A stretch of 10,163 nt of DNA, taken from the NCBI GenBank assembly GCA_037917625.1, contig JAVCBY010000087.1, positions 1 to 10,163 on the forward strand, in the 5' to 3' direction. Within the stretch, counting starts at the first letter, position 1, and each line of letters begins with the position of its first letter. This document shows, one piece after another, positions 3-10,163 of this stretch. The translations under genes were made by a program, and so were the position numbers. The notes below the pieces were generated by a model. It was not told the origin of the DNA and did no database searches. It worked only from the letters and a program-made list of their open reading frames with translations. This stretch comes from Thermoproteota archaeon (lineage in GTDB: Archaea > Korarchaeota > Korarchaeia > Korarchaeales > Korarchaeaceae).

Positions 3-188
3 AGGTTATTCAGTGATATAGCTATTTTTTACAAGCCTGGCGATAGGGAATCCCTGAAGAAAGCTTTGAGGGACCTCGAGAATTTCGATATTCCCCCAAG
101 GATGTTGAGGTATATTGTTGAAAAAAATTATGATATAAAAGTAGTTGGTGAGAAAATACTATCAGTCTATTCAGACTTAATTGAATGA
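3..188 (+). CDS. 3' end of a probable glycosyltransferase family 4 (GT-B fold) protein, partial
   Basis: Not in the ORF track. Frame 3 is open from the window edge to TGA at 186-188: RLFSDIAIFYKPGDRESLKKALRDLENFDIPPRMLRYIVEKNYDIKVVGEKILSVYSDLIE*. The 'PGDxxxLxxAL...R..V...Y........L..Y..L' pattern is typical of GT4 C-termini. It overlaps the convergent gene by 22 nt. Confidence 0.6.
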   Translation, partial: RLFSDIAIFYKPGDRESLKKALRDLENFDIPPRMLRYIVEKNYDIKVVGEKILSVYSDLIE

Positions 189-1003
189 CTTGAGCGTTTC
201 CTCAGCCTATAAGCTAAGTATATTGATGCGAGCAACAGGAGGGGGATCGCTAGGAAGGAAGCTCCCACGACTAGTATGTAAATAGACCCTATTAAGGCCT
301 TCCTAGAGTCCTCCCAGATTTTAGCTAAGAGGTCCTCCTCAGGAGGCACATAGCCTTCCTTCTTCAACTCCACATTCACAGTCGCATAATTTATCATCGT
401 CTGTAAGTTCCTCCTCATCGCCTCTAACCATTCTATCTGCTGCCTCACTTGAGATAGCTTATCCTCTATCTCTATTATATCTTTGACGCTCTCAGCTTTA
501 TTCAAAAGATCCATTAGCCTACTTTCAGTAGCTTTAAGGCTCTTCAATCTCGTTTCAACATCTAATACTTGCTCTGTCACATCCTCCACATTCTTCTGCT
601 CGATCTCAACTTTGCCAAGCGATCTTATATCTTTCAAAGCATCCTCGAGCCTCTCCACCGGTATCTCTAAGGTTACGTAACCTCCTCCCTCGTATATTGA
701 GGAGCTCTGGACATAACCATCATACTTTAGAGCTATCTGAGATAGCTTAGACTGAGCCGAATTTACATCGCTCACCTTAAGCTTCAGATAAGCACTCACA
801 GTCACATTCCTTCCTGAAGGCATTGAAATAGCTTCCTTACTCGGGAGAGCCTCCCCCGTCAAACTCGCTGCCTTGGTCATCTCAGGCATATATTGAGTCT
901 TAAGCGCTTGTTGAGACTGCCTCTCGAAAAGAGAGGGGTATATGAGGTAGCCAGCTAGTAAGAGGATCGTCAAAAAGGCCGCTAGCAATATCACTCTCTT
1001 CAT
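167..1003 (-). CDS. DUF4349-domain membrane protein (N-terminal signal/TM segment, coiled coil, C-terminal TM helix)
   Basis: Likely start is ATG at 1003 (MKRVILLAAFLTILLLAGYLIY, a signal-like segment). It contains the family-typical 'L.V.DV..A...L......Y.GYV.SS', 'EDVTEQVLDVETRLKSLK..E.RL..LL.KA.SVKDIIEIE.KL..VR.QIE.L' and 'YATVNVEL' segments, then a C-terminal hydrophobic helix followed by basic residues. Confidence 0.75.
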   Translation of the reverse strand: MKRVILLAAFLTILLLAGYLIYPSLFERQSQQALKTQYMPEMTKAASLTGEALPSKEAISMPSGRNVTVSAYLKLKVSDVNSAQSKLSQIALKYDGYVQSSSIYEGGGYVTLEIPVERLEDALKDIRSLGKVEIEQKNVEDVTEQVLDVETRLKSLKATESRLMDLLNKAESVKDIIEIEDKLSQVRQQIEWLEAMRRNLQTMINYATVNVELKKEGYVPPEEDLLAKIWEDSRKALIGSIYILVVGASFLAIPLLLLASIYLAYRLRKRSSHSIKSE

Positions 1004-1031
1004 AATTTCACATGAAATTACTCGCTTAAAA
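1003..1031 (-). promoter_or_regulatory. Candidate promoter of the DUF4349 gene: TATA-like TTTTAA plus an 18-bp palindrome at the start site
   Basis: On the minus strand TTTTAA (1031-1026) lies 23-28 nt upstream of the ATG, which is leaderless spacing, and there is no SD. A perfect inverted repeat TAATTTCA-CA-TGAAATTA occupies 1003-1020. Confidence 0.5.
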
Positions 1032-1928
1032 GGGGAGCTGATAAGCTTCAATTCCACCTGAAGCATTCAGTATCGGAGGATGGAAGAGGACGCTATCCGC
1101 AGCTACAGTCACTACAGTCCCTCCGTACTTCCTCTTCGCATATAAGCTAGCTAGATAATGGGCACCCGTCGACATGCCTCCCATGATCCCCTTCTTCAAG
1201 AGCTCGGAGGCCCACTCAATAGCTTCGGCCCTGCTGACCTCATAAACTTCATCCACTAAGCTAAGATCGAGATTATCGGGGATGTGATAGGTGTCGTAAC
1301 CCTCCACCTCCCCCTCGAACTCACTAGAGAGGCCGAATTTTCTAGCTAATTCTGAGCCTTTAGAGGTGACAGCTATTATCCTAGCCCCGAATTCCCTCTT
1401 AAGGAGTCTCCCGACACCAGTTATCGTACCTCCTGTCCCTACTCCCATCACGAAAACATCCACTCTCTTGACACTCTCCAATATCTCCTCTCCCATCCTC
1501 TCCTGTCCCTTAGGGTTAGCTGGATTCGAATCCTGCATCAAGAAAGTAGCTCCCTTCTCCTCAGCTATCCTCTCAGCTACGGATTTTATGCTCCTAGGGT
1601 CCTCAGGGGGGACGTTGGGGCATGTGTAAACTTTAGCGCCTAAGCTCCTCATTAGAGCGACTTTGATGGGGCTGGAGTCCTCCTTAACCGCTATATAGAC
1701 ATCGAAGCCCATAGCCCTACCGTGGAGGGAGAGGGAGACCCCAGTGCATCCGCTCGTGGCTTCTACTATAGCTCCACCCCTACCCTTCCTATCTATTAGA
1801 TCCAAGAGCATCGAGACTGCCATCCTGTCCTTATGACTGCCTCCGGGATTCAGATACTCGAGCTTGAATAAGATGCCATCTACATCAACGAGTGGGGTAT
1901 TTCCCACGCATTCCCAGATCTCGGGCAT
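1026..1928 (-). CDS. Cysteine synthase / cystathionine beta-synthase family PLP enzyme (fold type II), atypical
   Basis: Motifs present: VGNTPLV, KLEYLNPGGSHKDR (PLP lysine), EATSGCTG (normally TSGNTG), QDSNPANP, GVGTGGT (phosphate loop) and GxSTGA. The CPNVPPEDPRS segment resembles bacterial CBS-type enzymes. Confidence 0.85.
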   Translation of the reverse strand: MPEIWECVGNTPLVDVDGILFKLEYLNPGGSHKDRMAVSMLLDLIDRKGRGGAIVEATSGCTGVSLSLHGRAMGFDVYIAVKEDSSPIKVALMRSLGAKVYTCPNVPPEDPRSIKSVAERIAEEKGATFLMQDSNPANPKGQERMGEEILESVKRVDVFVMGVGTGGTITGVGRLLKREFGARIIAVTSKGSELARKFGLSSEFEGEVEGYDTYHIPDNLDLSLVDEVYEVSRAEAIEWASELLKKGIMGGMSTGAHYLASLYAKRKYGGTVVTVAADSVLFHPPILNASGGIEAYQLPF

Positions 1929-2233: not shown

Positions 2234-3889
2234 ATGAAAGCCCGTGATCTAGCCTTAGTTTTACTCCTCTTCGTAGTGGGCGCGGTCATCGGTTATTTCG
2301 CCGCGGGTCCCGGTAAGGTGACTACAGTCACTACCACAGTGACCACTACTATAGTGCAGACAGCTACGCCGACTGTCACGACACCGGCAGTTACGATGAG
2401 GACTCCTGCTGATACGCTGATAATCGCGATGGATACATCTGATGCCGTTTCACTCGATCCCGCGAGAGCTTATGAGTTCACATCATGCTTCGTCACGAAT
2501 CAGTTATACGATAAGCTCGTCGATTTTGAGCTCCCCAATCTGGTAGATGTGAAGCCGGAGGTCGCCGAGAGATGGGAAGTGAGTCCTGATGGAATGACTT
2601 GGACATTTTACATAAGGAAGGGCATTAAGTTCGCCAGTGGAAATCCGCTCACAGCTGATGATGTCGTTTACTCCCTCCAAAGGGTAGTCAAGTTAAAACA
2701 GACGGCTTACTCAGTACTAGAGCCATTTCTGAAGACTCCGGATCAGATAGAGAAGATCGATGATTACACTGTCAGGATAAAGCTCAATAAGACAGTCGCT
2801 CCCAGCTTCTTCTTGAGCGTCTTGACCTTCACTACATCGAGTATTGTAGATAAGAAGGTCGTAGAGGCCCACGAGAAAGATGGGGACATGGGGAGTGCCT
2901 GGTTAGACGACCATAGTGCCGGGAGTGGTCCCTTCGTGCTGGAGAAATGGGATAGGGAATCCCAATTCATCCTGAGGGCCAACCCGTATTATTGGAAGCC
3001 TGGACAGCCTTACGTCAAGACGATCATAATAAAGCACGTCGCTGAGCCGACCGACCAACTCCTCTTGATACAGAAGGGTGATGTCGATGTAGCGACAGAT
3101 CTGACTCCGGATCAGATAAAGCAATTGGAGGGACAGCCCGGGATCTACATAGTCAGGGCTGAGAGGTTACACAATGTTTACATAGGGATGAATGTGGCCG
3201 TAAAGCCCCTGGATAAGGAGGAAGTGAGGGATGCGATAAGGTACTGCATAGATTACGACGGTATAGTGAATGCTATAATGAAGGGAGCCGCTATAAAGTG
3301 GCAGACAGTGATTCCAAAGGGATTGCTAGGCGCTAATCCGAAGACCCCTTACTATAAAGACGTTAGTAAGGCTAAGGAGTTACTGGCTAAAGCTGGATAT
3401 CCGAACGGCTTCACTATAGAGTTGACGACGCCCCCGACTTACCCGCAGATAGATATCGCCACGAAGATACAAGCTGACTTGGCTGAGTGCGGTATCACGG
3501 TGAACATAGTACAGATGACGGCCTCGATGATGTACGAGAAGTACAGGAAGCAGGGGCTTCAGATGGTCTTAGCTGGCTGGGGCTCCGATTACCCTGATCC
3601 TGACAGCAATGCCATGGCCTTCGCTAACTATAGGATAAGGCAATTGGCCTGGAGGAACAGCTGGTACGATGATTACGCCGCTGACCTGGCTGAGAAGGCT
3701 AGCGTTGAGATGGACACTAAGAAGAGGGAGCAGATGTACTTAAATCTGACAGATTATATACTGGATCACGGTCCTTACGTCATGCTATATCAGACTGTAG
3801 CTCAACAGGCTGTCAGAGATTATGTGAAGAACTGGTTGCCTGATCCCACGTTCTATTACCTCGATCTCTCGAAGGTCAGGAAGGGTTAA
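2234..3889 (+). CDS. dppA: ABC transporter substrate-binding protein, family 5 (DppA/DdpA-like peptide-binding protein)
   Basis: It has an N-terminal hydrophobic anchor and a Thr-rich linker (VTTVTTTVTTTIVQTATPTVTT). Family motifs include SLDPA, AERWEVSPDGMTWTFYIRKGIKFASGNPLTADDVVYSLQR (family-5 signature), GSGPFVL, ANPYYW, VRDAIRYCID, KAKELLAKAGYPNGF and WGSDYPDPD. Confidence 0.93.
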   Translation: MKARDLALVLLLFVVGAVIGYFAAGPGKVTTVTTTVTTTIVQTATPTVTTPAVTMRTPADTLIIAMDTSDAVSLDPARAYEFTSCFVTNQLYDKLVDFELPNLVDVKPEVAERWEVSPDGMTWTFYIRKGIKFASGNPLTADDVVYSLQRVVKLKQTAYSVLEPFLKTPDQIEKIDDYTVRIKLNKTVAPSFFLSVLTFTTSSIVDKKVVEAHEKDGDMGSAWLDDHSAGSGPFVLEKWDRESQFILRANPYYWKPGQPYVKTIIIKHVAEPTDQLLLIQKGDVDVATDLTPDQIKQLEGQPGIYIVRAERLHNVYIGMNVAVKPLDKEEVRDAIRYCIDYDGIVNAIMKGAAIKWQTVIPKGLLGANPKTPYYKDVSKAKELLAKAGYPNGFTIELTTPPTYPQIDIATKIQADLAECGITVNIVQMTASMMYEKYRKQGLQMVLAGWGSDYPDPDSNAMAFANYRIRQLAWRNSWYDDYAADLAEKASVEMDTKKREQMYLNLTDYILDHGPYVMLYQTVAQQAVRDYVKNWLPDPTFYYLDLSKVRKG

Positions 3890-3909
3890 GAGCCCTCCCA
3901 CCTTTTTTT
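3874..3909 (+). terminator. Candidate internal terminator/attenuator after the binding-protein gene
   Basis: Hairpin AGGGTT-AAG-AGCCCT (3882-3896, one G-U pair) spans the stop codon and is followed by CCCACC and a T7 run (3903-3909). Oligo-T tracts are known archaeal terminators. Confidence 0.45.
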
Positions 3910-3927
3910 ACATTGAGGAGGGTCCAT

Positions 3928-4941
3928 ATGGACCTCAGGACTTATATTATAAGGAGATTGGGTTTGATGGTTTTTGTCCTGTTCGGGATCATAGTGATAA
4001 CATTTATAGTATCTCACGTAATTCCAGCTGACCCCATTGGAGCTATACTAGGCCCTCAAGCCTCCCCAGAGCTCGTGGAGAAGATAAGGAGAGAGTGGGG
4101 ATTCGATAAGCCCTTACACGAGCAGTTCTTCGATTATATCTATAAGGTGATCAGGGGGGACCTGGGGAGATCTATAAAGACGAACAACCCCGTGATGGAG
4201 GATCTCCTCTACTTCTTCCCAGCGACTATAGAGCTCGCTACTGCCGCTATAATAGTAGCTATAGCCATAGGGATTCCCCTAGGCATAATATCCGCTGTTA
4301 AGAAGGACAAGTGGCCTGACCATATCTCGAGGATATTCGCTCTCATGGGCGTGAGCATGCCTGTCTTCTGGTTGGGCTTACTGCTCTTATTCGTCCTCTA
4401 CTACAAGTTGGGGATATTCCCAGGGCCCGGGAGGCTAGATCCAGGCATACCTGAGCCCCCTAGGATAACGGGTCTCTTGACGCTGGATAGCCTCTTGACT
4501 GGGAATTTCGAAGCATTTACCAATGCACTCTGGCATTTAGCATTACCATCGTTCGTTCTGGGGTATTACGCTTCAGCTTCGATAGCTAGGATAACGAGGA
4601 CAGCACTCCTGGAGGTATTAACGCAGGATTTCATAAAAGCCGCCAGGAGCAAGGGCCTAGCGGAGAGGGTCGTCCTGTTCAGGCACGCTTTGAGGAATGC
4701 CCTGATCCCGACAACTACAGTGATAGGCATGGCCTATGGTAGCCTATTGGAAGGTGCTATTTTAACTGAGACAATATTCGCCTGGCCCGGATTGGGGAGA
4801 TATTCTACAGGAGCTTTCCTATCCGTGGACTTCATGGCTGTAATGGGGTCTACACTTTTAATAGCTCTAGTTTACTCGCTAGCGAACTTGATAGTAGACA
4901 TACTCTACGCCTTCTTGGATCCCAGGATAAGGTACGCGTGA
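3928..4941 (+). CDS. dppB: Peptide ABC transporter permease (DppB/DdpB-like)
   Basis: ATG 3928 follows GAGGAGG (3915-3921). Motifs are YIIRRL, IPADP, GDLGRS, FPATIELA, MPVFWLG, HLALP, the EAA-like loop DFIKAARSKGL, RHALRNA and ETIFAWPGLG. Confidence 0.93.
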   Translation: MDLRTYIIRRLGLMVFVLFGIIVITFIVSHVIPADPIGAILGPQASPELVEKIRREWGFDKPLHEQFFDYIYKVIRGDLGRSIKTNNPVMEDLLYFFPATIELATAAIIVAIAIGIPLGIISAVKKDKWPDHISRIFALMGVSMPVFWLGLLLLFVLYYKLGIFPGPGRLDPGIPEPPRITGLLTLDSLLTGNFEAFTNALWHLALPSFVLGYYASASIARITRTALLEVLTQDFIKAARSKGLAERVVLFRHALRNALIPTTTVIGMAYGSLLEGAILTETIFAWPGLGRYSTGAFLSVDFMAVMGSTLLIALVYSLANLIVDILYAFLDPRIRYA

Positions 4942-4945
4942 GGTG

Positions 4946-5818
4946 ATGGCCTTGCTCAAGATCCAAGAATACCTCAAGTCAGAGGATTTCAAGTTCACGC
5001 TCATTTTGATAAAGAGGAGCCCTCTGACTATACTAGGGATCTCCATAACGTCGCTATTGATAATGATAGCAGTGCTGGCACCCATGATAGCTATTGAAGA
5101 TCCCACGAGAACTGATCTGAGCAAGAGGTTGTTACCGCCGAGTATGGAACACCCCTTCGGCACTGATCAGTTGGGGAGGGATATCTTCAGCAGGGTGGTC
5201 TGGGGCTCTAGGATCTCGTTATTCATAGCTGTGGTAGTTGTTTCGATATCTTTGACTATAGGAATGTTAATAGGATTAATATCTGGATACTTTGGTGGTA
5301 AAATAGATGAAATATTGATGAGAATAACTGATATGTTCATGGCCTTCCCCAGACTGATACTGGCGCTCGCAGTCGCTGCTGCCCTGGGGCCCGGATTATT
5401 CAACACGATGATGGCCATAGCATTCGTCGATTGGGTGTTTTACGCTAGGCTCGCTAGAGCTATCGCACTTCAGATAAGGGAGGAGACGTATATAGAGGCA
5501 GCCAGAGCTATAGGGGCTGGCGATGCGAGGATAATACTCAGGCACGCATTACCTATCGCGATCCCCACACTGATAGTCAGGGCGACTCTGGATATGGGTG
5601 GCACGATACTGACGGCAGCAGCCCTCGGTTTCCTGGGTCTCGGAGTCCAACCGCCGACCCCTGAGTGGGGCGTCATGGTGAGTGAGGGGAGGAGGTTCGT
5701 AACTGAGCAATGGTGGGTCTCAACGTTCCCGGGCTTCGCCATACTATTAGCTACAATGGGATTCAATCTGCTGGGGGATGGTATAAACGATATACTTAAT
5801 GTGAGGGCAAGGAGGTAA
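4946..5818 (+). CDS. dppC: Peptide ABC transporter permease (DppC/DdpC-like)
   Basis: Motifs are HPFGTDQLGRDIFSRVVWGSRISL, the EAA motif YIEAARAIGA, LGFLGLGVQPPTPEWG and GFNLLGDG. The start could be GTG 4943, ATG 4946 or TTG 4952, next to GAGGTG at 4940-4945. Confidence 0.93.
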   Translation: MALLKIQEYLKSEDFKFTLILIKRSPLTILGISITSLLIMIAVLAPMIAIEDPTRTDLSKRLLPPSMEHPFGTDQLGRDIFSRVVWGSRISLFIAVVVVSISLTIGMLIGLISGYFGGKIDEILMRITDMFMAFPRLILALAVAAALGPGLFNTMMAIAFVDWVFYARLARAIALQIREETYIEAARAIGAGDARIILRHALPIAIPTLIVRATLDMGGTILTAAALGFLGLGVQPPTPEWGVMVSEGRRFVTEQWWVSTFPGFAILLATMGFNLLGDGINDILNVRARR

Positions 5819-5823
5819 TATAC

Positions 5824-6783
5824 ATGCTCCTCGAGGTCAGGGATCTCAGAGTCAGGTTTCACAGCCTGAGGGGGATTGTGAGAGCTGTAGATGGTGTGAG
5901 CTTCTCTGTTAACTATGGTGAGGTCTTAGGATTAGTGGGGGAGACCGGTAGCGGGAAGACAGTGACTGGGCTCACGATAATGAGGTTATTAGATGAGAAC
6001 GCTGAGATATCTGGAGGGGAAGTTATCTTCGAGGGGAAGGACCTTCTAAAACTCCCAATTAGTGAGATCCTTAAGATAAGAGGTAGAGATATATCTATGA
6101 TATTCCAAGAGCCGAAAGTGGCACTGAATCCCGTGATTCAAGTCGGGGACCAAGTAGCTGAGTCTTTCCTCACTCACGAGAGAATGAGTAAGGATGAGGC
6201 TAGGGAGAGAGTGCTGGATATGTTCAGGAAGGTAGGTCTCCCCGATCCGGAGAGGATATACAGGAGCTACCCCCATGAATTGAGCGGAGGCATGGCTCAG
6301 AGGATAGTGATATCGATGGCTCTAGCCTTAAAACCGAAGCTCATGATAGCCGATGAACCTACCTCAGCGCTCGATGTGACTATCCAAGCCCAGATAATGG
6401 AGCTCTTCAGGGAGCTAATCAGGGAGTTCAACACTAGCGTCATCTACATAACGCACGATCTAGCTCTAGCCGCTGAGATAGCTGATAGAATAGCCGTTAT
6501 GTACGCTGGGAGGATAGTTGAAGTAGCTAGGACCGAGGAGCTATTCGAGAACCCACTTCATCCTTACACGGTAGGCCTCCTCAAGTCCATCCCCGGATCG
6601 AGATCCTCGGGGAGTAGGCTCTTCTCCATGGAAGGGGAGATACCCTCCCTCCTCAATCCCCCACCCGGTTGTCTCTTCCATCCTAGATGCCCGAGTAGGA
6701 TGGGCATATGCGAGAGGGAAGTCCCAAGCCTTTTAAATGCCGGAAATGACCATATAGTCTCTTGCTTCCTCTATGGGAGATGA
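5824..6783 (+). CDS. dppD: Peptide ABC transporter ATP-binding protein (DppD-like)
   Basis: Walker A GETGSGKT, Q-loop IFQEP, signature LSGGMAQR, Walker B IADEPT, H-loop ITHD. The C-terminal oligopeptide domain reads HPYT...GCLFHPRC...C...C. SD GGAGGT overlaps the upstream stop. Confidence 0.95.
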   Translation: MLLEVRDLRVRFHSLRGIVRAVDGVSFSVNYGEVLGLVGETGSGKTVTGLTIMRLLDENAEISGGEVIFEGKDLLKLPISEILKIRGRDISMIFQEPKVALNPVIQVGDQVAESFLTHERMSKDEARERVLDMFRKVGLPDPERIYRSYPHELSGGMAQRIVISMALALKPKLMIADEPTSALDVTIQAQIMELFRELIREFNTSVIYITHDLALAAEIADRIAVMYAGRIVEVARTEELFENPLHPYTVGLLKSIPGSRSSGSRLFSMEGEIPSLLNPPPGCLFHPRCPSRMGICEREVPSLLNAGNDHIVSCFLYGR

Positions 6784-6789
6784 TGCCCT

Positions 6790-7761
6790 ATGCTCAAGCT
6801 CCAAGATATCAAGAAGTACTTCCCCGTCAGGGGAGGCGTATTCATGAGAGTTATCGGAGAGATAAAAGCCGTGGATGGTGTCTCAATTGACATAGGAGAG
6901 GGTGAAACTTTCGGACTTGTTGGTGAGTCCGGGAGCGGGAAGACGACGCTGGGGAGGGTCGTTCTCAAGTTGATAGAGCCTACCTCAGGGAGGATATTCT
7001 TCAATGGAAGGGACATAACTGAACTGAGGGGTAAGGACCTCCTGCCTCTGAGGAGGGAGATGCAGATAGTCTTCCAAGACCCGTACAAAGCACTGCATCC
7101 CAAGAAGAAAGTCAAAGACATAATTGGTGAGCCCCTAGTAGTGCACGAAGGGCTTAAAGGGGAGGAATTAGAGAGGAGGGTGAGCGAGATGCTCAAGCTA
7201 GTGGGCATGAACCCTGAGCACATGCATAGGTACCCTCACGAGTTCTCAGGGGGTCAGAGGCAGAGGATAGTCATAGCCAGGGCCCTCATACTAAGGCCCA
7301 AGTTCCTCGTCCTCGATGAGCCCACTTCCGCTCTCGATGTCAGCGTTCAAGCGAAAATATTAAATTTATTATCCGATTTAAAGGAAGAATTTAGACTAAC
7401 TTACCTATTGATAACACATAATCTTGCTGTAGTTAAACACGTCAGTAATAGGGTTGGTGTGATGTACTTGGGGAAGTTAGTCGAAGTTGCCCCGACTGAG
7501 GAGCTCTTCGAGAACCCAGTGCATCCTTACACTATGGGGTTGATCTCTTCAATCCCCGTCCCCGACCCTAAGTTAGCTAAATCTAGGAGAAAGCTCATCC
7601 TCCTCGGTGAGATACCGAGCCCCATGAACCCCCCGCGGGGATGCAGATTCCACACGAGATGCCCTTATGCTAAGGAGATATGCAAGACAGAGGAACCTCG
7701 GATGGAGGAAATCTCGAGAGGCCATTATGTATCATGCCACCTCTGGAGAGAGTTGAGCTGA
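6790..7761 (+). CDS. dppF: Peptide ABC transporter ATP-binding protein (DppF-like)
   Basis: Walker A GESGSGKT, MQIVFQDP, signature FSGGQRQR, Walker B VLDEPT, ITHN and a C-terminal HPYT...GCRFHTRC...C...CH domain. Confidence 0.95.
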   Translation: MLKLQDIKKYFPVRGGVFMRVIGEIKAVDGVSIDIGEGETFGLVGESGSGKTTLGRVVLKLIEPTSGRIFFNGRDITELRGKDLLPLRREMQIVFQDPYKALHPKKKVKDIIGEPLVVHEGLKGEELERRVSEMLKLVGMNPEHMHRYPHEFSGGQRQRIVIARALILRPKFLVLDEPTSALDVSVQAKILNLLSDLKEEFRLTYLLITHNLAVVKHVSNRVGVMYLGKLVEVAPTEELFENPVHPYTMGLISSIPVPDPKLAKSRRKLILLGEIPSPMNPPRGCRFHTRCPYAKEICKTEEPRMEEISRGHYVSCHLWRELS

Positions 7762-7763
7762 TC

Positions 7764-7907
7764 ATGAGCGACGAGCGAGAAGTGAAGCTGAGCTTAAAGG
7801 ATTATATAGCTTTCCTGATAGCGCTCCTAACGACCCATCTCCTCCCCCTGATATTTGTGATAATCATCACGATACTGCTAGCCATCCTCATAGGATATCT
7901 CTTCTGA
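7764..7907 (+). CDS. Small membrane protein (47 aa), function unknown
   Basis: ATG lies 2 nt after the dppF stop. The product MSDEREVKLSLKDYIAFLIALLTTHLLPLIFVIIITILLAILIGYLF has a charged N-terminus and a ~33-aa hydrophobic stretch with a central Pro. It fills the gap to the convergent gene almost exactly (2 nt left). Confidence 0.65.
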   Translation: MSDEREVKLSLKDYIAFLIALLTTHLLPLIFVIIITILLAILIGYLF

Positions 7908-7909
7908 TC

Positions 7910-9190
7910 TCACTTAGAGATCCGATTTTTTATCTCCTTCAGGGAGTCCTCAATTATTCTTATAGCTTCATCCATCTGCTCTCGAGTTATCGTTATGGGT
8001 GGGGTCAATTTGATTACATTGTGGTGCCTTCCTACAGTAATAGCCAGAAGCCCTCGGTCGAATAGAGCCCATTTCACCATCTCAGCTACTTTACTGGAGG
8101 GTCTGCCTTCCTCATATAACTCTATCCCCTGAACACAACCCACTCCTCTCGAGTCAACCACGAAATCATACTCCTCGACGAAGTCCCTCAAGGAAGAGCT
8201 CAACTGTTCCCCTCTCTCCCTAGCGTTCTCGATCAGATTCTCCTCCCTTATGGCCTCTATAGTCGCTAGAGAAGCTACTGCCGATAGATAGTGCCCCGCG
8301 AAGGTCCCGAGGCTGCCTCCACTGCAGAGGTACCAATCCTCCAGGAGATCCCCTCTGAATGCTATCGCAGCTATGGGGAGGCCCCCGCCCATCCCCTTGC
8401 CCATGACGATCACATCGGGCTCGACGCCATGATGCTCGATCCCGAACCACTTCCCCGTCCTCCCGAATCCAGTATAGACTTCATCTACTATCAGGAGAGC
8501 GCCTGTCTCACTCGATATCCTCCTCAGCTCTTGGAAGAACCTAGCTGGCGGGAATATTATGCCACCATGTGATTGTAGAGGCTCTACGATTATAGCTGCG
8601 AGATCTTCAGGTTCAACAGCCCTCCCGATTATCTCCTCCTCTATGAAGGAGATCGAGAGATCGACGCACTCATCACATGGGAGGGATCTCATCTTGCAGG
8701 GGAGGCAGTTGGGATAGGGCGCATATAAAGTATCGCTAGCCCTCGGGGCCACTCTCCTCATTCCTTCCGTCGGTGATGACATCAAAGCATAGCCTGTCAG
8801 GCCATGATAGGCCCCGAGAAATGAGAGGATGACGCTCCTCTTAGTGACGTACTTAGCTAGTTGGATCGCGAAATCGCTCGCCTCACTTCCGGTAGTAGCG
8901 TAAGCTATTGAGGATTCCTTAACAGGCACTATAGATCTCAGTTTCTCGCCCAACCTTAAGAAGGGCTCCGTTGGAGCTAATAGACCTGAGAACCCCGTTA
9001 TCCTATCTACATGTTCCTTAACGCTCTCAACTACCTTGGGATGCGCTTGACCCAATGAAGTAGCTGCTCCGCTGAAGTCCAGGAATCTCCTCCCATCCTT
9101 CGTCCAGATCTCAGCTTTGAAGCCCCTCTCTACTATTATAGGGAATGAGGGCTTGCATTTGAATATAGATGGGTAATAGGGCTCTATCAT
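7910..9190 (-). CDS. Class III PLP-dependent aminotransferase-fold enzyme, possible amino acid/amide racemase
   Basis: Motifs are DGRRFLDF, SLGQAHPKVV, TGSEA, GAYHG, AIIVEPLQSHGG, LIVDEVYTGFGRTG, PDVIVMGKGMGGGLP (PLP Lys265), GTFAG and NVIKLTPP. The fold is certain; the activity is inferred. Confidence 0.9.
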   Translation of the reverse strand: MIEPYYPSIFKCKPSFPIIVERGFKAEIWTKDGRRFLDFSGAATSLGQAHPKVVESVKEHVDRITGFSGLLAPTEPFLRLGEKLRSIVPVKESSIAYATTGSEASDFAIQLAKYVTKRSVILSFLGAYHGLTGYALMSSPTEGMRRVAPRASDTLYAPYPNCLPCKMRSLPCDECVDLSISFIEEEIIGRAVEPEDLAAIIVEPLQSHGGIIFPPARFFQELRRISSETGALLIVDEVYTGFGRTGKWFGIEHHGVEPDVIVMGKGMGGGLPIAAIAFRGDLLEDWYLCSGGSLGTFAGHYLSAVASLATIEAIREENLIENARERGEQLSSSLRDFVEEYDFVVDSRGVGCVQGIELYEEGRPSSKVAEMVKWALFDRGLLAITVGRHHNVIKLTPPITITREQMDEAIRIIEDSLKEIKNRISK

Positions 9191-9199
9191 GCTCTTCCC

Positions 9200-10111
9200 C
9201 TACAGAGGCGTAGATACTTTACCTTCCTCGAAAACTTTCCAGAGCTTCAACATCCCCTCCTTAACCCTCAAGTTCCCCAAGCCCGCTCCCTCCGGCAGTA
9301 TCCTGAAGCCGTTCTCACACTTAGCCCCTCCCTCAACGAAGTCCTCCTTCAAAGATATATCGGAATCTAGGTCCGTCGTAACGATATTCCTAGTGGCTGT
9401 AGCGAAGTGAACTGCTGCAGTTATGCTTACTCCTCCCTCCATCATACAACCTATCATATTCGGTATCCCAGCCGCTTCGCTTATAGCAGCAATCCTCCTA
9501 GCCTCCAAGAGGCCCCCGGCTTTAGTCAACTTTATGTTTATGTAATCAGCAGCCCTCATCTTCGCGACTAAGAGAGCATCTCTAGCGGAGTGGACGGATT
9601 CATCCGCCATTATCGGGATCGGGCTGACTCGAGTCAGCTCAGCCATCCCCTCATAATCGTACCACTTCACAGGCTGCTCAGCGAGCTCCACATCGTACCT
9701 CTCCATGGATGATAGAGCCTTCTTAGCTTGCTTAACTGTCCATCCTTGATTGGCATCTATCCTTATCCTTATGTCCTTACCCACAGCATCCCTGACAGCC
9801 TTAACCCTAGCTAGATCCTCCTCAACATCGAGGCCCACTTTTAGCTTCAATATCCTGAAGCCCATCTCAACGTACCTCAAGGCATCGGAGGCCATCTCCT
9901 CTGGCGACATTATGCCTATAGTGAAGTCTGTCTCTACTCTCTCTTTATAGCCTCCCAGTAGATCCCTCACTCTGACACCCAGTATCTTCCCCTTCAAGTC
10001 GAAGACAGCCATCTCAAGCGCTAGTTTCGCTGACGTATTTCCGAGGATGGCTCCGGATATCTTACTCTCGATCTCCTCGACATTGAGCGGATCCTCATTG
10101 ATCAATTGAGG
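9200..10111 (-). CDS. Dipeptide epimerase (L-Ala-D/L-Glu epimerase family, enolase superfamily MLE subgroup), 5'-truncated in this sequence
   Basis: KLKVG (KxK catalytic Lys), metal ligands in DANQG, EQP and DES, the second Lys in NIKLTKAGG, GCMME, and the DLD (DxD) motif typical of dipeptide epimerases such as B. subtilis YkfB. The start of the N-terminal capping domain is missing because the frame runs into the inverted duplication (in-frame stop at 10123-10121). Confidence 0.88.
   Translation of the reverse strand, partial: PQLINEDPLNVEEIESKISGAILGNTSAKLALEMAVFDLKGKILGVRVRDLLGGYKERVETDFTIGIMSPEEMASDALRYVEMGFRILKLKVGLDVEEDLARVKAVRDAVGKDIRIRIDANQGWTVKQAKKALSSMERYDVELAEQPVKWYDYEGMAELTRVSPIPIMADESVHSARDALLVAKMRAADYINIKLTKAGGLLEARRIAAISEAAGIPNMIGCMMEGGVSITAAVHFATATRNIVTTDLDSDISLKEDFVEGGAKCENGFRILPEGAGLGNLRVKEGMLKLWKVFEEGKVSTPL
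9768..9825. repeat. Copy 1 of a 58-bp exact inverted repeat, inside the epimerase coding sequence
   Basis: CTTATGTCCTTACCCACAGCATCCCTGACAGCCTTAACCCTAGCTAGATCCTCCTCAA is the exact reverse complement of 10106-10163. Confidence 0.95.
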
Positions 10112-10163
10112 AGGATCTAGCTAGGGTTAAGGCTGTCAGGGATGCTGTGGGTAAGGACATAAG
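10106..10163. repeat. Copy 2 of the 58-bp exact inverted repeat, running to the window end (probable fold-back chimera)
   Basis: TTGAGGAGGATCTAGCTAGGGTTAAGGCTGTCAGGGATGCTGTGGGTAAGGACATAAG encodes EEDLARVKAVRDAVGKDI on the + strand, identical to the internal epimerase segment on the - strand. Confidence 0.95.

What the first reader, a model, noticed from the sequence alone, without database searches (positions are those of the whole stretch)
7910..9190. Class III PLP enzyme with a racemase-like active site and His at the usual Glu/Asp position
Seen: EPLQSHGG (His208, codon 8569-8567), DEVY (Tyr239), PLP Lys265, AYHG (Tyr128) and NVIKLTPP. Established, from recall: GABA/ornithine transaminases typically have EPIQGEGG, DEVQ and NVIRF. 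Fold-I racemases (Achromobacter alpha-amino-epsilon-caprolactam racemase, Lactobacillus isoleucine 2-epimerase, Pyrococcus broad-specificity racemase) have AYHG and Asp in EPIQ(S/G)D(G/A)G, and that Asp is implicated in catalysis with the PLP lysine. This protein lacks the transaminase Glu, Gln and Arg. Its DFSGA..SLG, AYHG, QSxGG and GKGxGGGLP segments recall the caprolactam racemase, and the His-Lys spacing (57) equals the recalled Asp210-Lys267 spacing. Inference: a racemase/epimerase subfamily that uses His as the second acid/base and would be auto-annotated as GabT/ArgD.
Basis: partly seen in the sequence, partly recalled or inferred. Interest (0 to 1): 0.72.

Follow-up and report, generated by a model that had tools for sequence, protein, structure and literature searches.

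The report
Archaeal racemase-like PLP enzyme with histidine
A hot-spring archaeon carries a vitamin-B6 enzyme that looks like an amino-acid racemase but has three changed active-site residues, and it always sits beside a peptide importer in a gene set that probably salvages D-amino-acid peptides.

Summary
ORF 7910..9190 (-) is a 426-aa class III PLP protein with His208, Tyr239 and Lys394. GabT-type transaminases have Glu, Gln and Arg at these positions, archaeal racemases have Asp, Gln and Arg, and amide racemases have Asp, Lys and Glu.

The H-Y-K triad is invariant in its small clade: one korarchaeal genus plus a few other archaeal sequences. Both synonymous codons occur at each site.

The nearest solved proteins are the Pyrococcus Ala/Ser and broad-specificity racemases. 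However, the clade is not nested among characterised racemases. It lies in an uncharacterised neighbouring radiation where position 208 varies (H, N, P, A, D).

The gene always converges on a DppA-type ABC operon. It travels with a YkfB-like dipeptide epimerase and an orphan LysA, and the same module recurs in a lineage only 52% identical.

A close homologue of the broad-specificity racemase also carries His in place of the catalytic Asp, next to an orthologous importer.

The best reading is a racemase or epimerase for imported D-amino acids or D-peptides (about 0.5). His as the second acid/base is plausible but not shown.

This scan had already noted the module on other DNA (e1-5198388).

The parts
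7910..9190 (-). Class III (fold-type I) PLP enzyme, 426 aa, 'H-Y-K' subfamily; racemase-like
   Evidence: ORF and translation. Pfam PF00202, 285 bits. Best solved relatives are 9wqz (6.8e-85) and 9wrf (2.4e-81). No NCBIfam cut-off is reached.
8567..8569 (-). His208 codon (CAT), at the position of the racemase Asp and the transaminase Glu
   Evidence: Alignments, coordinates, invariance.
8474..8476 (-). Tyr239 codon (TAT), at the position of Gln in DEVQ and of Lys241 in amide racemases
8396..8398 (-). Lys265 codon, the Schiff-base lysine
   Evidence: Aligned to the GKG/AKA lysine of 9wqz, 9wrf and GabT. Invariant in alignment A1.
8807..8809 (-). Tyr128 codon (AYHG), the aromatic residue next to the cofactor
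   Evidence: Tyr in 34 of 38 racemase-type, 10 of 117 E-Q-R and 31 of 31 clade sequences.
8009..8011 (-). Lys394 codon (NVIKLTPP), at the position of the carboxylate-binding Arg
8483..8485 (-). Asp236 codon, the aspartate facing the pyridine nitrogen
   Evidence: Nearly invariant (90% or more) in A1 and invariant in the clade alignment A2. Its role is taken from ACLR D238 and ILEP D250 (PMC6424897, passages).
9200..10112 (-). Enolase-superfamily dipeptide epimerase-like gene, 9 bases upstream of the PLP gene. Its 5' part is lost at the contig end.
   Evidence: Pfam MR_MLE_C and MR_MLE_N. The full-length orthologue's best solved relative is B. subtilis L-Ala-D/L-Glu epimerase 1jpm, 1.5e-85. It reaches no NCBIfam cut-off.
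2234..3889 (+). Family-5 solute-binding protein of the ABC importer (DppA-like)
   Evidence: Pfam SBP_bac_5. Solved relatives include E. coli DppA 1dpp, 2.1e-52.
3913..5818 (+). Two ABC permease genes (3913-4941 and 4943-5818)
   Evidence: Pfam BPD_transp_1.
5824..7761 (+). Two ABC ATPase genes (5824-6783 and 6790-7761) with oligo_HPY tails
   Evidence: Pfam ABC_tran and oligo_HPY.
7764..7907 (+). Conserved 47-aa hydrophobic small ORF that closes the ABC operon and ends 3 bases from the stop of the PLP gene
   Evidence: tblastn matches of 51-77% identity at the same place in all 15 korarchaeal loci, and also in L135 and L154.
1026..1928 (-). Fold-type II PLP enzyme (cysteine-synthase-like), a loose member of the neighbourhood
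   Evidence: Pfam PALP. cysKM scores 178.6 against a cut-off of 344. It lies next to the module or to the epimerase gene in L037, L038, L050, L132 and L134.
167..1066 (-). DUF4349 protein that travels with the PALP gene
   Evidence: Pfam, synteny.

Best explanation
The gene encodes an active PLP enzyme of the class III fold that works as a racemase or epimerase rather than a standard transaminase. It serves a small import-and-conversion module made of a DppA-type ABC importer, an enolase-type dipeptide epimerase and a diaminopimelate decarboxylase. That module lets a wall-less archaeon use D-amino-acid-containing peptides, most plausibly fragments of bacterial murein.

Proposed mechanism (inferred): the substrate amine forms the external aldimine on the cofactor held by Lys265, Asp236 and Tyr128. 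Lys265 removes or adds the alpha-proton on one face. A group on the opposite face, at the place of the racemase Asp, does the reverse. Here that group is His208, possibly acting together with Tyr128. Lys394 stands in for the Arg that holds the alpha-carboxylate, and Tyr239 stands in for the Gln at the cofactor O3'.

Shown: the residues, their conservation, the homology and the gene neighbourhood. Inferred: the reaction type, the role of His208 and the substrate. D-Ala is the simplest substrate guess. A peptide N-terminal residue, D-Glu or a diaminopimelate isomer remain open.
For: 1. The cofactor-binding residues are intact and the protein is under purifying selection.
2. The best solved relatives are racemases: 9wqz at 288.7 bits and 9wrf at 277 bits, against GabT at 231 bits. 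Foldseek also ranks 9wqz/9wr1 first, TMq 0.90.
3. All three positions that mark GabT-type transaminases are changed. The genome has four other, more ordinary class III paralogues (three E-Q-R and one T-I-R) plus a HemL-like one, and no D-Q-R racemase.
4. In an IQ-TREE of 85 rows the clade lies in a 62-row group (support 94) together with the D-Q-R/D-K-E racemase clade, apart from most E-Q-R rows. It shares 5 of 9 class-discriminating columns with racemases.
5. In ILEP and the Ala/Ser racemase the Asp at this position is needed for activity and is taken to deliver the proton (PMC6047364 and PMC6053490, passages). P0123, which scores 411 bits to 9wrf, has EPIQGHAG there.
6. Context: the ABC operon converges on the gene in the window and in all 15 other korarchaeal loci. 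The epimerase and lysA genes are close by in most of them. In a lineage 52% identical (L154) the order is lysA | H-Y-K gene | epimerase | small ORF | ABC, with housekeeping flanks. None of the 79 other loci from the same scan (77 E-Q-R, 2 D-Q-R) has any module gene.
7. The binding-protein orthologue was found in 15 of the 16 genomes of the genus that have the gene, and in 0 of the 5 that lack it.
8. lysA passes TIGR01048 (356 and 382 bits against 297.9). DapF and DapB were not found in 5 genomes, four of them 99% complete. There is no fold-III alanine racemase other than lysA itself.
9. In G362 the His-bearing BAR-like gene lies beside an EamA transporter, an AsnC-type regulator, an M55 D-aminopeptidase and an ABC operon 57-69% identical to the window's. 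This resembles the D-amino-acid-induced transporter/racemase/regulator cluster of P. horikoshii (PMC13628549, abstract and passages).
Against: - No racemase model cut-off is reached: Ala/Ser racemase family 285 against 639, Leu/Met racemase 275 against 800.
- The clade is not nested in the characterised racemase clade. Its 33-row home clade (support 96) has no characterised member, and none of 10 members tested reaches any NCBIfam cut-off.
- Among the nearest kin, position 208 is N, P, A or D as well as H, and position 394 is R, G, E, T or S. These positions therefore behave like specificity positions.
- For the caprolactam racemase I recall that the Tyr, not the Asp, was proposed as the second base. 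I did not see that paper.
- The ESM Atlas feature search puts clusters named after phospho-lyases among its three top rows.
- The loops at 130-151 and about 285-300, which border the pocket, are modelled with low confidence, and no coordinates were available for measurement.
- The epimerase has Gly where I recall B. subtilis YkfB Arg24 binds the Glu side chain (alignment), so a murein dipeptide substrate is not assured.
- No peptidase gene belongs to the module, and M55 was not found in 5 korarchaeal genomes.
- Genomes without the gene still have the epimerase, although those loci lie at contig ends.
Confidence: 0.5

Rival explanations
1. It is a transaminase with an unusual substrate pair, for example one acting on a D-amino acid, on diaminopimelate or lysine, or on a peptide-derived amine. 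In this reading His208, Tyr239 and Lys394 only shape the pocket.
For: Most of the family are transaminases: E-Q-R in 117 of the 270 collected relatives. Positions 208 and 239 also vary among its nearest kin. Lys394 keeps a positive charge that could hold a keto-acid carboxylate. The fold matches GabT nearly as well as it matches the racemases, TMq 0.84-0.87 against 0.86-0.90. Class III enzymes do serve diaminopimelate and lysine metabolism (established knowledge, recalled), and lysA is the direct upstream neighbour in L046, L050 and L051.
Against: All three positions that mark GabT-type enzymes are changed. GABAtrnsam scores 259 against 506 and argD 229 against 410. The genome keeps four ordinary paralogues. 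The closest characterised proteins are racemases. The partner gene is another stereo-inverting enzyme.
Confidence: 0.25
2. It is a racemase or epimerase, but His208 is not the second base. Lys265 and Tyr128 (or water) move the protons, and His208 binds or orients the substrate and sets specificity.
For: Position 208 is N, P, A, D or H in the 20-row clade (support 98) around the core clade. Tyr128 is invariant and is the racemase-type state. PDB titles show that both D210 and K241 of the caprolactam racemase were mutated for mechanistic work. I recall, without having seen the paper, that the Tyr was proposed as the base there.
Against: In ILEP and the Ala/Ser racemase, loss of the Asp abolishes activity, and the Asp is described as the proton donor nearest C-alpha (PMC6047364 and PMC6053490, passages). 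His is invariant in the clade and also replaces Asp in a BAR-like protein.
Confidence: 0.3
3. It catalyses another PLP reaction on an imported compound, such as elimination (phospho-lyase or ammonia-lyase type) or decarboxylation-dependent transamination.
For: The ESM Atlas feature search lists clusters named 5-phosphohydroxy-L-lysine phospho-lyase-like and ethanolamine-phosphate phospho-lyase among its three best rows. A relative from the same wider clade (P0032) scores 314 bits on the PbfA ammonia-lyase model, against a cut-off of 525. The replacement of Asp/Glu by His, with Lys at 394, would suit a more anionic substrate (inference).
Against: The solved phospho-lyase 6tor scores only 156 bits against the query, compared with 289 bits for the Ala/Ser racemase. 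The Atlas gives no alignment and describes itself as a source of leads only. Nothing in the module points to phosphorylated substrates.
Confidence: 0.08

Closest known systems
Pyrococcus horikoshii Ala/Ser racemase (PH0782; PDB 9wqz, 9wr1)
   Same: It is the best solved relative by sequence (6.8e-85) and by predicted fold (TMq 0.90, about 35% identity). It has the same fold, Schiff-base Lys, AYHG Tyr and Asp at the pyridine nitrogen. The spacing between the position-208 residue and the Lys is the same, 57.
   Different: The racemase has Asp, Gln and Arg (EPIQGDAG, DEVQTG, NVIRITPP) where the query has His, Tyr and Lys. The query scores 285 against a cut-off of 639 on that family's model. It lies in another clade. 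It has a two-residue deletion in the DFSG loop and a longer WYLCSGGSLGT loop.
P. horikoshii broad-specificity amino-acid racemase BAR (PH0138; PDB 9wrf) and its His-bearing homologue P0123/G362
   Same: Second-best solved relative (2.4e-81). BAR is clustered with a transporter and serves D-amino-acid use (PMC13628549). P0123 carries His at the same position and sits near an ABC operon orthologous to the window's.
   Different: BAR is D-Q-R and P0123 is H-Q-R. Both keep the Gln and the Arg that the query has lost. Neither is next to an epimerase or lysA gene.
Lactobacillus buchneri isoleucine 2-epimerase (PDB 5wya, 4ysn)
   Same: A class III fold racemase with a Lys and a residue at the query's position 208 described as the two proton carriers (PMC6053490, PMC6047364). 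It scores 193 bits against the query.
   Different: It has Asp at that position. It is bacterial, and its gene neighbours an amino-acid permease (PMC6053490, passage), not a peptide importer.
Alpha-amino-epsilon-caprolactam racemase and amino-acid amide racemase (PDB 2zuk, 3dxv, 5m46, 6gio)
   Same: Same fold, the (A/S)YHG Tyr, and a GKGxGGGLP-like lysine loop. Like the query, they have lost the carboxylate-binding Arg.
   Different: Their triad is Asp210, Lys241 and Glu (EPILSDGG, DEVKVG, NVLEFMPP in 6gio), not His, Tyr and Lys. They score lower than the Pyrococcus racemases. Their substrates are lactams and amides (names of the entries).
E. coli GabT and other GABA, ornithine or acetylornithine transaminases
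   Same: Same Pfam family and fold, 231 bits. The sources' automatic names place the query's kin here.
   Different: The Glu, Gln and Arg of EPVQGEGG, DEVQSG and NVLRIL are all replaced. The GabT Arg141 after AYHG is Leu in the query. The equivalog cut-offs are missed by about half.
B. subtilis dpp-ykf and E. coli mpp/ycjG murein-peptide recycling loci (recalled)
   Same: A peptide ABC importer lies together with an enolase-type L-Ala-D/L-Glu epimerase. The epimerase's best solved relative is YkfB itself.
   Different: The bacterial loci include peptidases and no class III PLP enzyme. The archaeal module has no peptidase gene, adds lysA and the H-Y-K enzyme, and its epimerase lacks the recalled YkfB Arg24 equivalent.

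Membership tests
Class III aminotransferase fold (Pfam PF00202, fold-type I PLP enzymes) | Profile match above the gathering score | tested here: met
   285.2 bits against 30.5, covering residues 15-416.
Class III aminotransferase fold (Pfam PF00202, fold-type I PLP enzymes) | Schiff-base Lys, Asp at the pyridine nitrogen, and the Thr of the phosphate site | tested here: met
   K265 and T296 are invariant and D236 is nearly invariant in A1. All three are aligned to the same residues of 9wqz, 9wrf and GabT.
GabT/OAT/ArgD-type transaminases | Glu in EPxQGEGG, Gln in DEVQ, Arg in NV(I/L)R | tested here: not met
   His208, Tyr239 and Lys394.
GabT/OAT/ArgD-type transaminases | NCBIfam equivalog or subfamily cut-off | tested here: not met
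   GABAtrnsam 259.2 against 506.65; argD 229.3 against 410.05.
Fold-type I amino-acid racemases (BAR, Ala/Ser racemase, ILEP, Leu/Met racemase) | Asp at the position opposite the Schiff-base Lys (D234 in the Ala/Ser racemase, D222 in ILEP) | tested here: not met
   His208 occupies this position. P0123 shows that His also occurs there in a BAR-like protein.
Fold-type I amino-acid racemases (BAR, Ala/Ser racemase, ILEP, Leu/Met racemase) | Tyr of (A/S)YHG and the Schiff-base Lys | tested here: met
   Y128 and K265.
Fold-type I amino-acid racemases (BAR, Ala/Ser racemase, ILEP, Leu/Met racemase) | Curated model cut-off | tested here: not met
   PRK05639 scores 285.1 against 639; LeuMetRace scores 275.2 against 800.
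Fold-type I amino-acid racemases (BAR, Ala/Ser racemase, ILEP, Leu/Met racemase) | Placement inside the clade of characterised racemases | tested here: not met
   The core clade (10 rows, support 100) sits in a separate 33-row clade (support 96). That clade lies next to the 25-row racemase clade (support 99) within a 62-row group (support 94). The tree is a quick IQ-TREE search with an uncertain root.
Fold-type I amino-acid racemases (BAR, Ala/Ser racemase, ILEP, Leu/Met racemase) | Racemase activity without net transamination | not testable with these tools
   This needs an enzyme assay.
Caprolactam and amino-acid amide racemases | Asp210, Lys241, and Glu in place of the carboxylate-binding Arg | tested here: not met
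   6gio has EPILSDGG, DEVKVG and NVLEFMPP. The query has His, Tyr and Lys.
Murein-peptide or D-peptide salvage module (context reading) | Conserved linkage of importer, epimerase, lysA and the PLP gene | tested here: met
   The ABC operon is linked in 16 of 16 korarchaeal loci. The epimerase and lysA are nearby in most. All four parts are present in L154.
Murein-peptide or D-peptide salvage module (context reading) | Epimerase specific for L-Ala-D/L-Glu | tested here: inconclusive
   The best solved relative is YkfB, but no NCBIfam cut-off is reached and the recalled Arg24 equivalent is Gly.

The most novel reading that the evidence does not exclude
The H-Y-K enzyme is a PLP-dependent epimerase of the N-terminal residue of imported di- or tripeptides, and it works in tandem with the co-transcribed enolase-type enzyme that epimerises the C-terminal residue. 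Together they would turn D,D- or mixed dipeptides, such as D-Ala-D-Ala, into all-L peptides that ordinary peptidases can cleave. His208 and Lys265 would be the two proton carriers. The loss of the carboxylate-binding Arg would reflect a peptide carbonyl in place of a free carboxylate. This would be a reaction not known for the class III fold. It would also give a route by which wall-less archaea feed on bacterial D-peptides.
Probability: 0.12. Interest if true: 0.8.

Novelty: new variant of a known kind. Interest (0 to 1): 0.58.

Why it matters
Class III PLP enzymes are named almost automatically as GABA or ornithine transaminases, yet the handful of characterised racemases of this fold show that the same scaffold can invert stereocentres.

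This work turns up a rare, tightly conserved subfamily in which all three substrate- and proton-handling positions are replaced together. It lies inside a wider radiation that has no characterised member and reaches no curated model cut-off.

If His208 acts with Lys265 as the proton pair, this would be a third solution for the second base in fold-type I racemases, after Asp and Tyr. It would also be a thermostable candidate for biocatalysis.

The gene neighbourhood gives a concrete, testable picture of how a wall-less, peptide-fermenting archaeon could use the D-amino-acid peptides and diaminopimelate that bacteria shed. It also shows that the importer family recurs with a His-bearing BAR-like racemase in another phylum.

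Tried and rejected
- Caprolactam racemase as the specific model: rejected. Amide racemases have D-K-E and score lower than the Pyrococcus racemases.
- Nesting inside the known racemase clade: not found.
- The genome-contig scan with the clade alignment used generic patterns. It returned one orthologue (L052) and 79 distant relatives, nearly all E-Q-R.
- The metagenome scan gave one H-Y-K locus (L154) and 79 others.
- The phylum search around G000 covered only 43 genomes and added no orthologue outside the genus.
- A sample of 401 genomes from the phylum of G043 gave only the H-Q-R protein of G362.
- The structure model could not be used for distances because no coordinates are handed out. Foldseek does not separate racemases from GabT beyond what sequence already shows.
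- ESM Atlas: the top rows are an unnamed transaminase cluster and two phospho-lyase clusters. I kept this only as a weak lead.
- No RNA holder was listed for the stretch, so nothing can be said about expression.
- The promoter and terminator scan of 7650-8000 found one terminator-like hairpin at 7906-7922 and no promoter-like site. This is not informative for an archaeon.
- Literature searches turned up no paper on a His-type class III racemase or on this korarchaeal enzyme. They were keyword searches, and only the top rows were read.
- The Leu/Met racemase paper (PMC8088516) is not held. The primary papers on ILEP and caprolactam racemase structures were not seen, only citations of them and PDB titles.
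- Supplementary files were not consulted.
Full report
**Observation**

The minus-strand ORF 7910..9190 encodes 426 residues. It matches Pfam Aminotran_3 over residues 15-416 at 285 bits. All quoted motifs are present at the stated places: His208 (8569-8567, CAT), Tyr239, Lys265, Tyr128 in AYHG, and NVIKLTPP with Lys394.

HMMER alignments to solved proteins fix what these positions mean.
- His208 lies on the Asp of EPIQGDAG in the Pyrococcus Ala/Ser racemase (9wqz) and the broad-specificity racemase (9wrf), and on the Glu of EPVQGEGG in E. coli GabT.
- Tyr239 lies on the Gln of DEVQ/EEVQ.
- Lys394 lies on the Arg of NV(I/L)R.

A relative of the query (P0056) aligned to the amide racemase 6gio shows that family's triad as Asp210, Lys241 and Glu: EPILSDGG, DEVKVG, NVLEFMPP. 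So there are four signatures at these three positions:
- E-Q-R in GabT-type transaminases;
- D-Q-R in amino-acid racemases;
- D-K-E in amide racemases;
- H-Y-K in the query.

**Is it more than chance?**

I collected 270 relatives in two searches. Among them E-Q-R occurs 117 times, D-Q-R 33, H-Y-K 33 and D-K-E 5, and the rest are scattered combinations.

The H-Y-K set is made of the query's own clade (P0001-P0031, 49-92% identical, plus fragment P0207) and two separate sequences, P0122 and P0161. Within the clade His and Tyr are invariant. Lys394 is present wherever the position is covered.

In 18 genomic copies both synonymous codons are used at each site while the residue never changes.

The clade is small. 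In a library of 1.84 billion representatives, only one protein more than 50% identical appears (463 bits). The next scores 309 bits.

**What family?**

No NCBIfam model cut-off is reached. The best is an unnamed 'acetyl ornithine aminotransferase family' model, 342 against 552. The Ala/Ser racemase family scores 285 against 639, Leu/Met racemase 275 against 800, GABA transaminase 259 against 507 and ArgD 229 against 410.

By sequence the nearest solved proteins are the two Pyrococcus racemases (289 and 277 bits). GabT follows at 231 bits, and caprolactam/amide racemases and ILEP score 193-210 bits.

An AlphaFold model (pLDDT 87.5, low at 130-151 and about 285-300) is closest to 9wqz/9wr1 (TMq 0.90). 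GabT, BAR and the amide racemase follow closely at 0.84-0.87. Fold therefore does not add discrimination.

**Phylogeny**

A FastTree of 268 rows and an IQ-TREE quick search of 85 rows agree. I chose the 85 rows from the 270 plus eight locus proteins. Fragments under 380 aa were dropped, and the larger classes were sampled at random.

- The core clade (10 rows, support 100, long stem) lies in a 20-row clade (support 98).
- That clade lies in a 33-row clade (support 96) with no E/D-Q-R member at all.
- In this 33-row clade position 208 is H, N, P, A, W, K or D, and position 239 is Y, F, W, V, L, I, M, T or A.
- The 33-row clade and the 25-row racemase clade (D-Q-R plus D-K-E, support 99) share a 62-row group (support 94), apart from most E-Q-R rows.
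- The root, placed on a long ArgD-like paralogue, is uncertain.

None of 10 proteins from this odd clade reaches any NCBIfam cut-off, and the sources call them GABA transaminases. The query is therefore a neighbour of the known racemases, not one of them. The variability of position 208 among its closest kin weighs against treating that position as an indispensable catalytic base across the whole clade.

Nine columns separate racemase-type from E-Q-R sequences in my set. The clade has the racemase state at five (D106, Y128, S139, I187, G264), the E-Q-R state at two, and neither at two. The classes were defined by the signature itself and the sample is centred on the query, so this is weak support.

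**Role of the Asp and His position in known enzymes**

From passages I read:
- K291A and D234A mutants of the Ala/Ser racemase are inactive. In ILEP, Asp222 lies nearest C-alpha of D-allo-Ile, and D222A/N mutants are almost inactive (PMC6047364).
- ILEP is described as using Lys280 to abstract the alpha-proton and Asp222 to add it (PMC6053490, restating a paper I did not see).
- The Tyr of caprolactam racemase (Y137) and of ILEP (Y142) packs edge-to-face on the cofactor, and D238/D250 face the pyridine nitrogen (PMC6424897).
- PDB titles show that D210A and K241A mutants of a caprolactam racemase were solved.

It scores 411 bits to BAR and lies inside the racemase clade. It has EPIQGHAG where BAR has EPIQGDAG, and it keeps Gln and Arg. 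His therefore replaces the racemase Asp at least twice independently.

**Surroundings**

In the window the gene is preceded, 9 bases upstream on the same strand, by an enolase-superfamily gene (9200-10112). It converges on a five-gene DppA-type ABC operon at 2234-7761.

The full-length orthologue of the enolase-type protein is closest to B. subtilis L-Ala-D/L-Glu epimerase YkfB (1.5e-85), then to an Enterococcus dipeptide epimerase. It reaches no curated cut-off. It has Gly where I recall YkfB Arg24 binds the Glu side chain.

The binding protein is closest to a peptide-binding protein (8upi), then haem-binding HbpA-type proteins, and E. coli DppA at 2.1e-52.

**Distribution**

Among 40 genomes of the class, orthologues (68% identity or more) occur only in the window's genus, in 16 of 21 genomes counting G000. 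The gene was not found in G012, G016, G022, G029 and G030, which are 96, 78, 70, 63 and 99% complete.

**Synteny**

In all 15 other loci the ABC operon converges on the gene. Upstream on the same strand there are three arrangements:
- the epimerase directly (G011 and G015, as in G000);
- a PhoU-domain gene, then lysA and the epimerase (8 loci);
- lysA directly (L046, L050, L051).

The lysA-like protein passes the TIGR01048 cut-off, and its solved relatives are all diaminopimelate decarboxylases.

The binding-protein orthologue was found in 15 of the 16 genomes with the gene. The sixteenth locus starts inside the operon at a contig end. It was found in none of the five genomes of the genus without the gene.

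The epimerase is more widespread, in 19 of 20 other genomes of the genus. However, in the genomes lacking the PLP gene it lies at or near contig ends, so those absences may be assembly gaps.

**An independent lineage and a control**

A metagenome contig that encodes P0028 (52% identical, L154) carries, in order: lysA (divergent), the H-Y-K gene, the epimerase, the small ORF, and the ABC operon at 61-73% identity. Its flanks are archaeal housekeeping genes.

The other 79 loci from the same scan (77 E-Q-R, 2 D-Q-R) carry none of the module genes, although many of them are short.

In G362 the H-Q-R BAR-like gene lies next to an EamA transporter and an AsnC-type regulator. It is 3.7 kb from an ABC operon 57-69% identical to the window's, and an M55 D-aminopeptidase gene lies nearby. 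This mirrors the transporter/BAR/regulator cluster of P. horikoshii, which is induced by D-allo-Ile (PMC13628549).

**Genome content**

In five genomes of the genus, four of them 99% complete:
- DapF and DapB were not found, so lysA looks like a salvage enzyme.
- The only Ala_racemase_N matches are lysA itself.
- Asp/Glu racemase family genes occur in three of the five.
- M55 peptidase was not found.

G000 has five other class III paralogues: three E-Q-R, one T-I-R and one HemL-like. It has no D-Q-R racemase.

**Reading**

Best supported is a racemase or epimerase that serves a module for imported D-amino-acid-containing peptides. Lys265 would act on one face and His208, perhaps with Tyr128, on the other. 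I put the reaction type at about 0.5 and the specific role of His lower.

D-Ala is the simplest substrate, for three reasons: the nearest characterised enzyme is an Ala/Ser racemase, no other alanine racemase was found, and D-Ala is the murein residue that the rest of the module leaves unhandled.

The joint loss of Gln and Arg, and the variety at position 394 among kin (R, K, G, E, T, S), leave room for a substrate without a free alpha-carboxylate. One such substrate would be the N-terminal residue of a dipeptide, which would complement the C-terminal specificity of enolase-type epimerases.

The rivals are:
- an unusual transaminase;
- a racemase in which His only binds substrate;
- another PLP chemistry.

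My synteny, lysA and DapF/DapB checks agree with it. They add the second lineage, the control loci and the G362 locus.

**Side findings**

- The last 51 bases of the window (10113-10163) are an inverted copy of an inner part of the epimerase gene. Contigs from three runs leave the window at 10113 and continue with the sequence expected for the gene's 5' part. The truncation is therefore an assembly artefact.
- A conserved 47-aa hydrophobic ORF (7764-7907) closes the ABC operon in every H-Y-K locus examined, but not in G362.

Noticed in passing
window 7764-7907 (+): An unannotated-looking 47-aa hydrophobic ORF lies directly after the second ABC ATPase gene and ends 3 bases from the stop of the PLP gene. 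tblastn finds it at the same place (51-77% identity, core DY(I/L)AF(L/I/V)IALLTT(H/N)LLPL) in all 15 korarchaeal loci, and also in L135 and in the distant L154. It is absent from L235.
   Followed up: partly
window 10113-10163: The last 51 bases do not continue the epimerase gene. They match an inner part of the same gene in reverse. Contigs from three public runs diverge from the window at 10113 and read on with the expected coding sequence. This is a contig-end assembly artefact, so the epimerase gene is not really truncated.
   Followed up: yes
L235 (G362:C2:4000-23900), gene at 9205-10551 (-): A close homologue of the Pyrococcus broad-specificity racemase has His in place of the catalytic Asp (EPIQGHAG, with Gln and Arg kept). 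It lies next to an EamA transporter and an AsnC-type regulator, 3.7 kb from an ABC operon 57-69% identical to the window's, and near an M55 D-aminopeptidase gene.
   Followed up: partly
proteins P0032, P0037, P0122-P0129, P0133, P0141, P0145, P0146, P0152, P0157-P0168, P0192, P0197, P0248, P0266: A 33-row clade of class III proteins (support 96) has no member with the usual Glu/Asp plus Gln. All come from metagenomes and are named GABA transaminases. None of the 10 tested reaches an NCBIfam cut-off. This is an uncharacterised radiation next to the racemases.
   Followed up: partly
L039 6743-7897 (+); L154 8606-9838 (-); G011:C1:928275-929423: A lysA that passes the curated cut-off occurs in genomes where DapF and DapB were not found. 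It is an orphan diaminopimelate decarboxylase that stays within the module's neighbourhood.
   Followed up: partly
window 1026-1928 (-) and 167-1066 (-): A cysteine-synthase-like fold-II PLP gene (178.6 bits against a cut-off of 344 for cysKM) overlaps a DUF4349 gene by 41 bases. The pair stays near the module and lies directly beside the epimerase gene in L050, L132 and L134.
   Followed up: partly
L039 8302-8928 (+) and the same place in 9 more loci: A PhoU-domain protein (118 bits against a cut-off of 130 for phoU_full) sits between lysA and the PLP gene. No phosphate transporter genes were seen in those stretches.
   Followed up: no
L037 10304-11437 (-), residue 27: The korarchaeal dipeptide-epimerase-like protein has Gly where B. 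subtilis YkfB has Arg24. The Enterococcus dipeptide epimerase 3jva also has Gly there, so its dipeptide specificity may not be Ala-Glu. The role of Arg24 is recalled, not checked.
   Followed up: no
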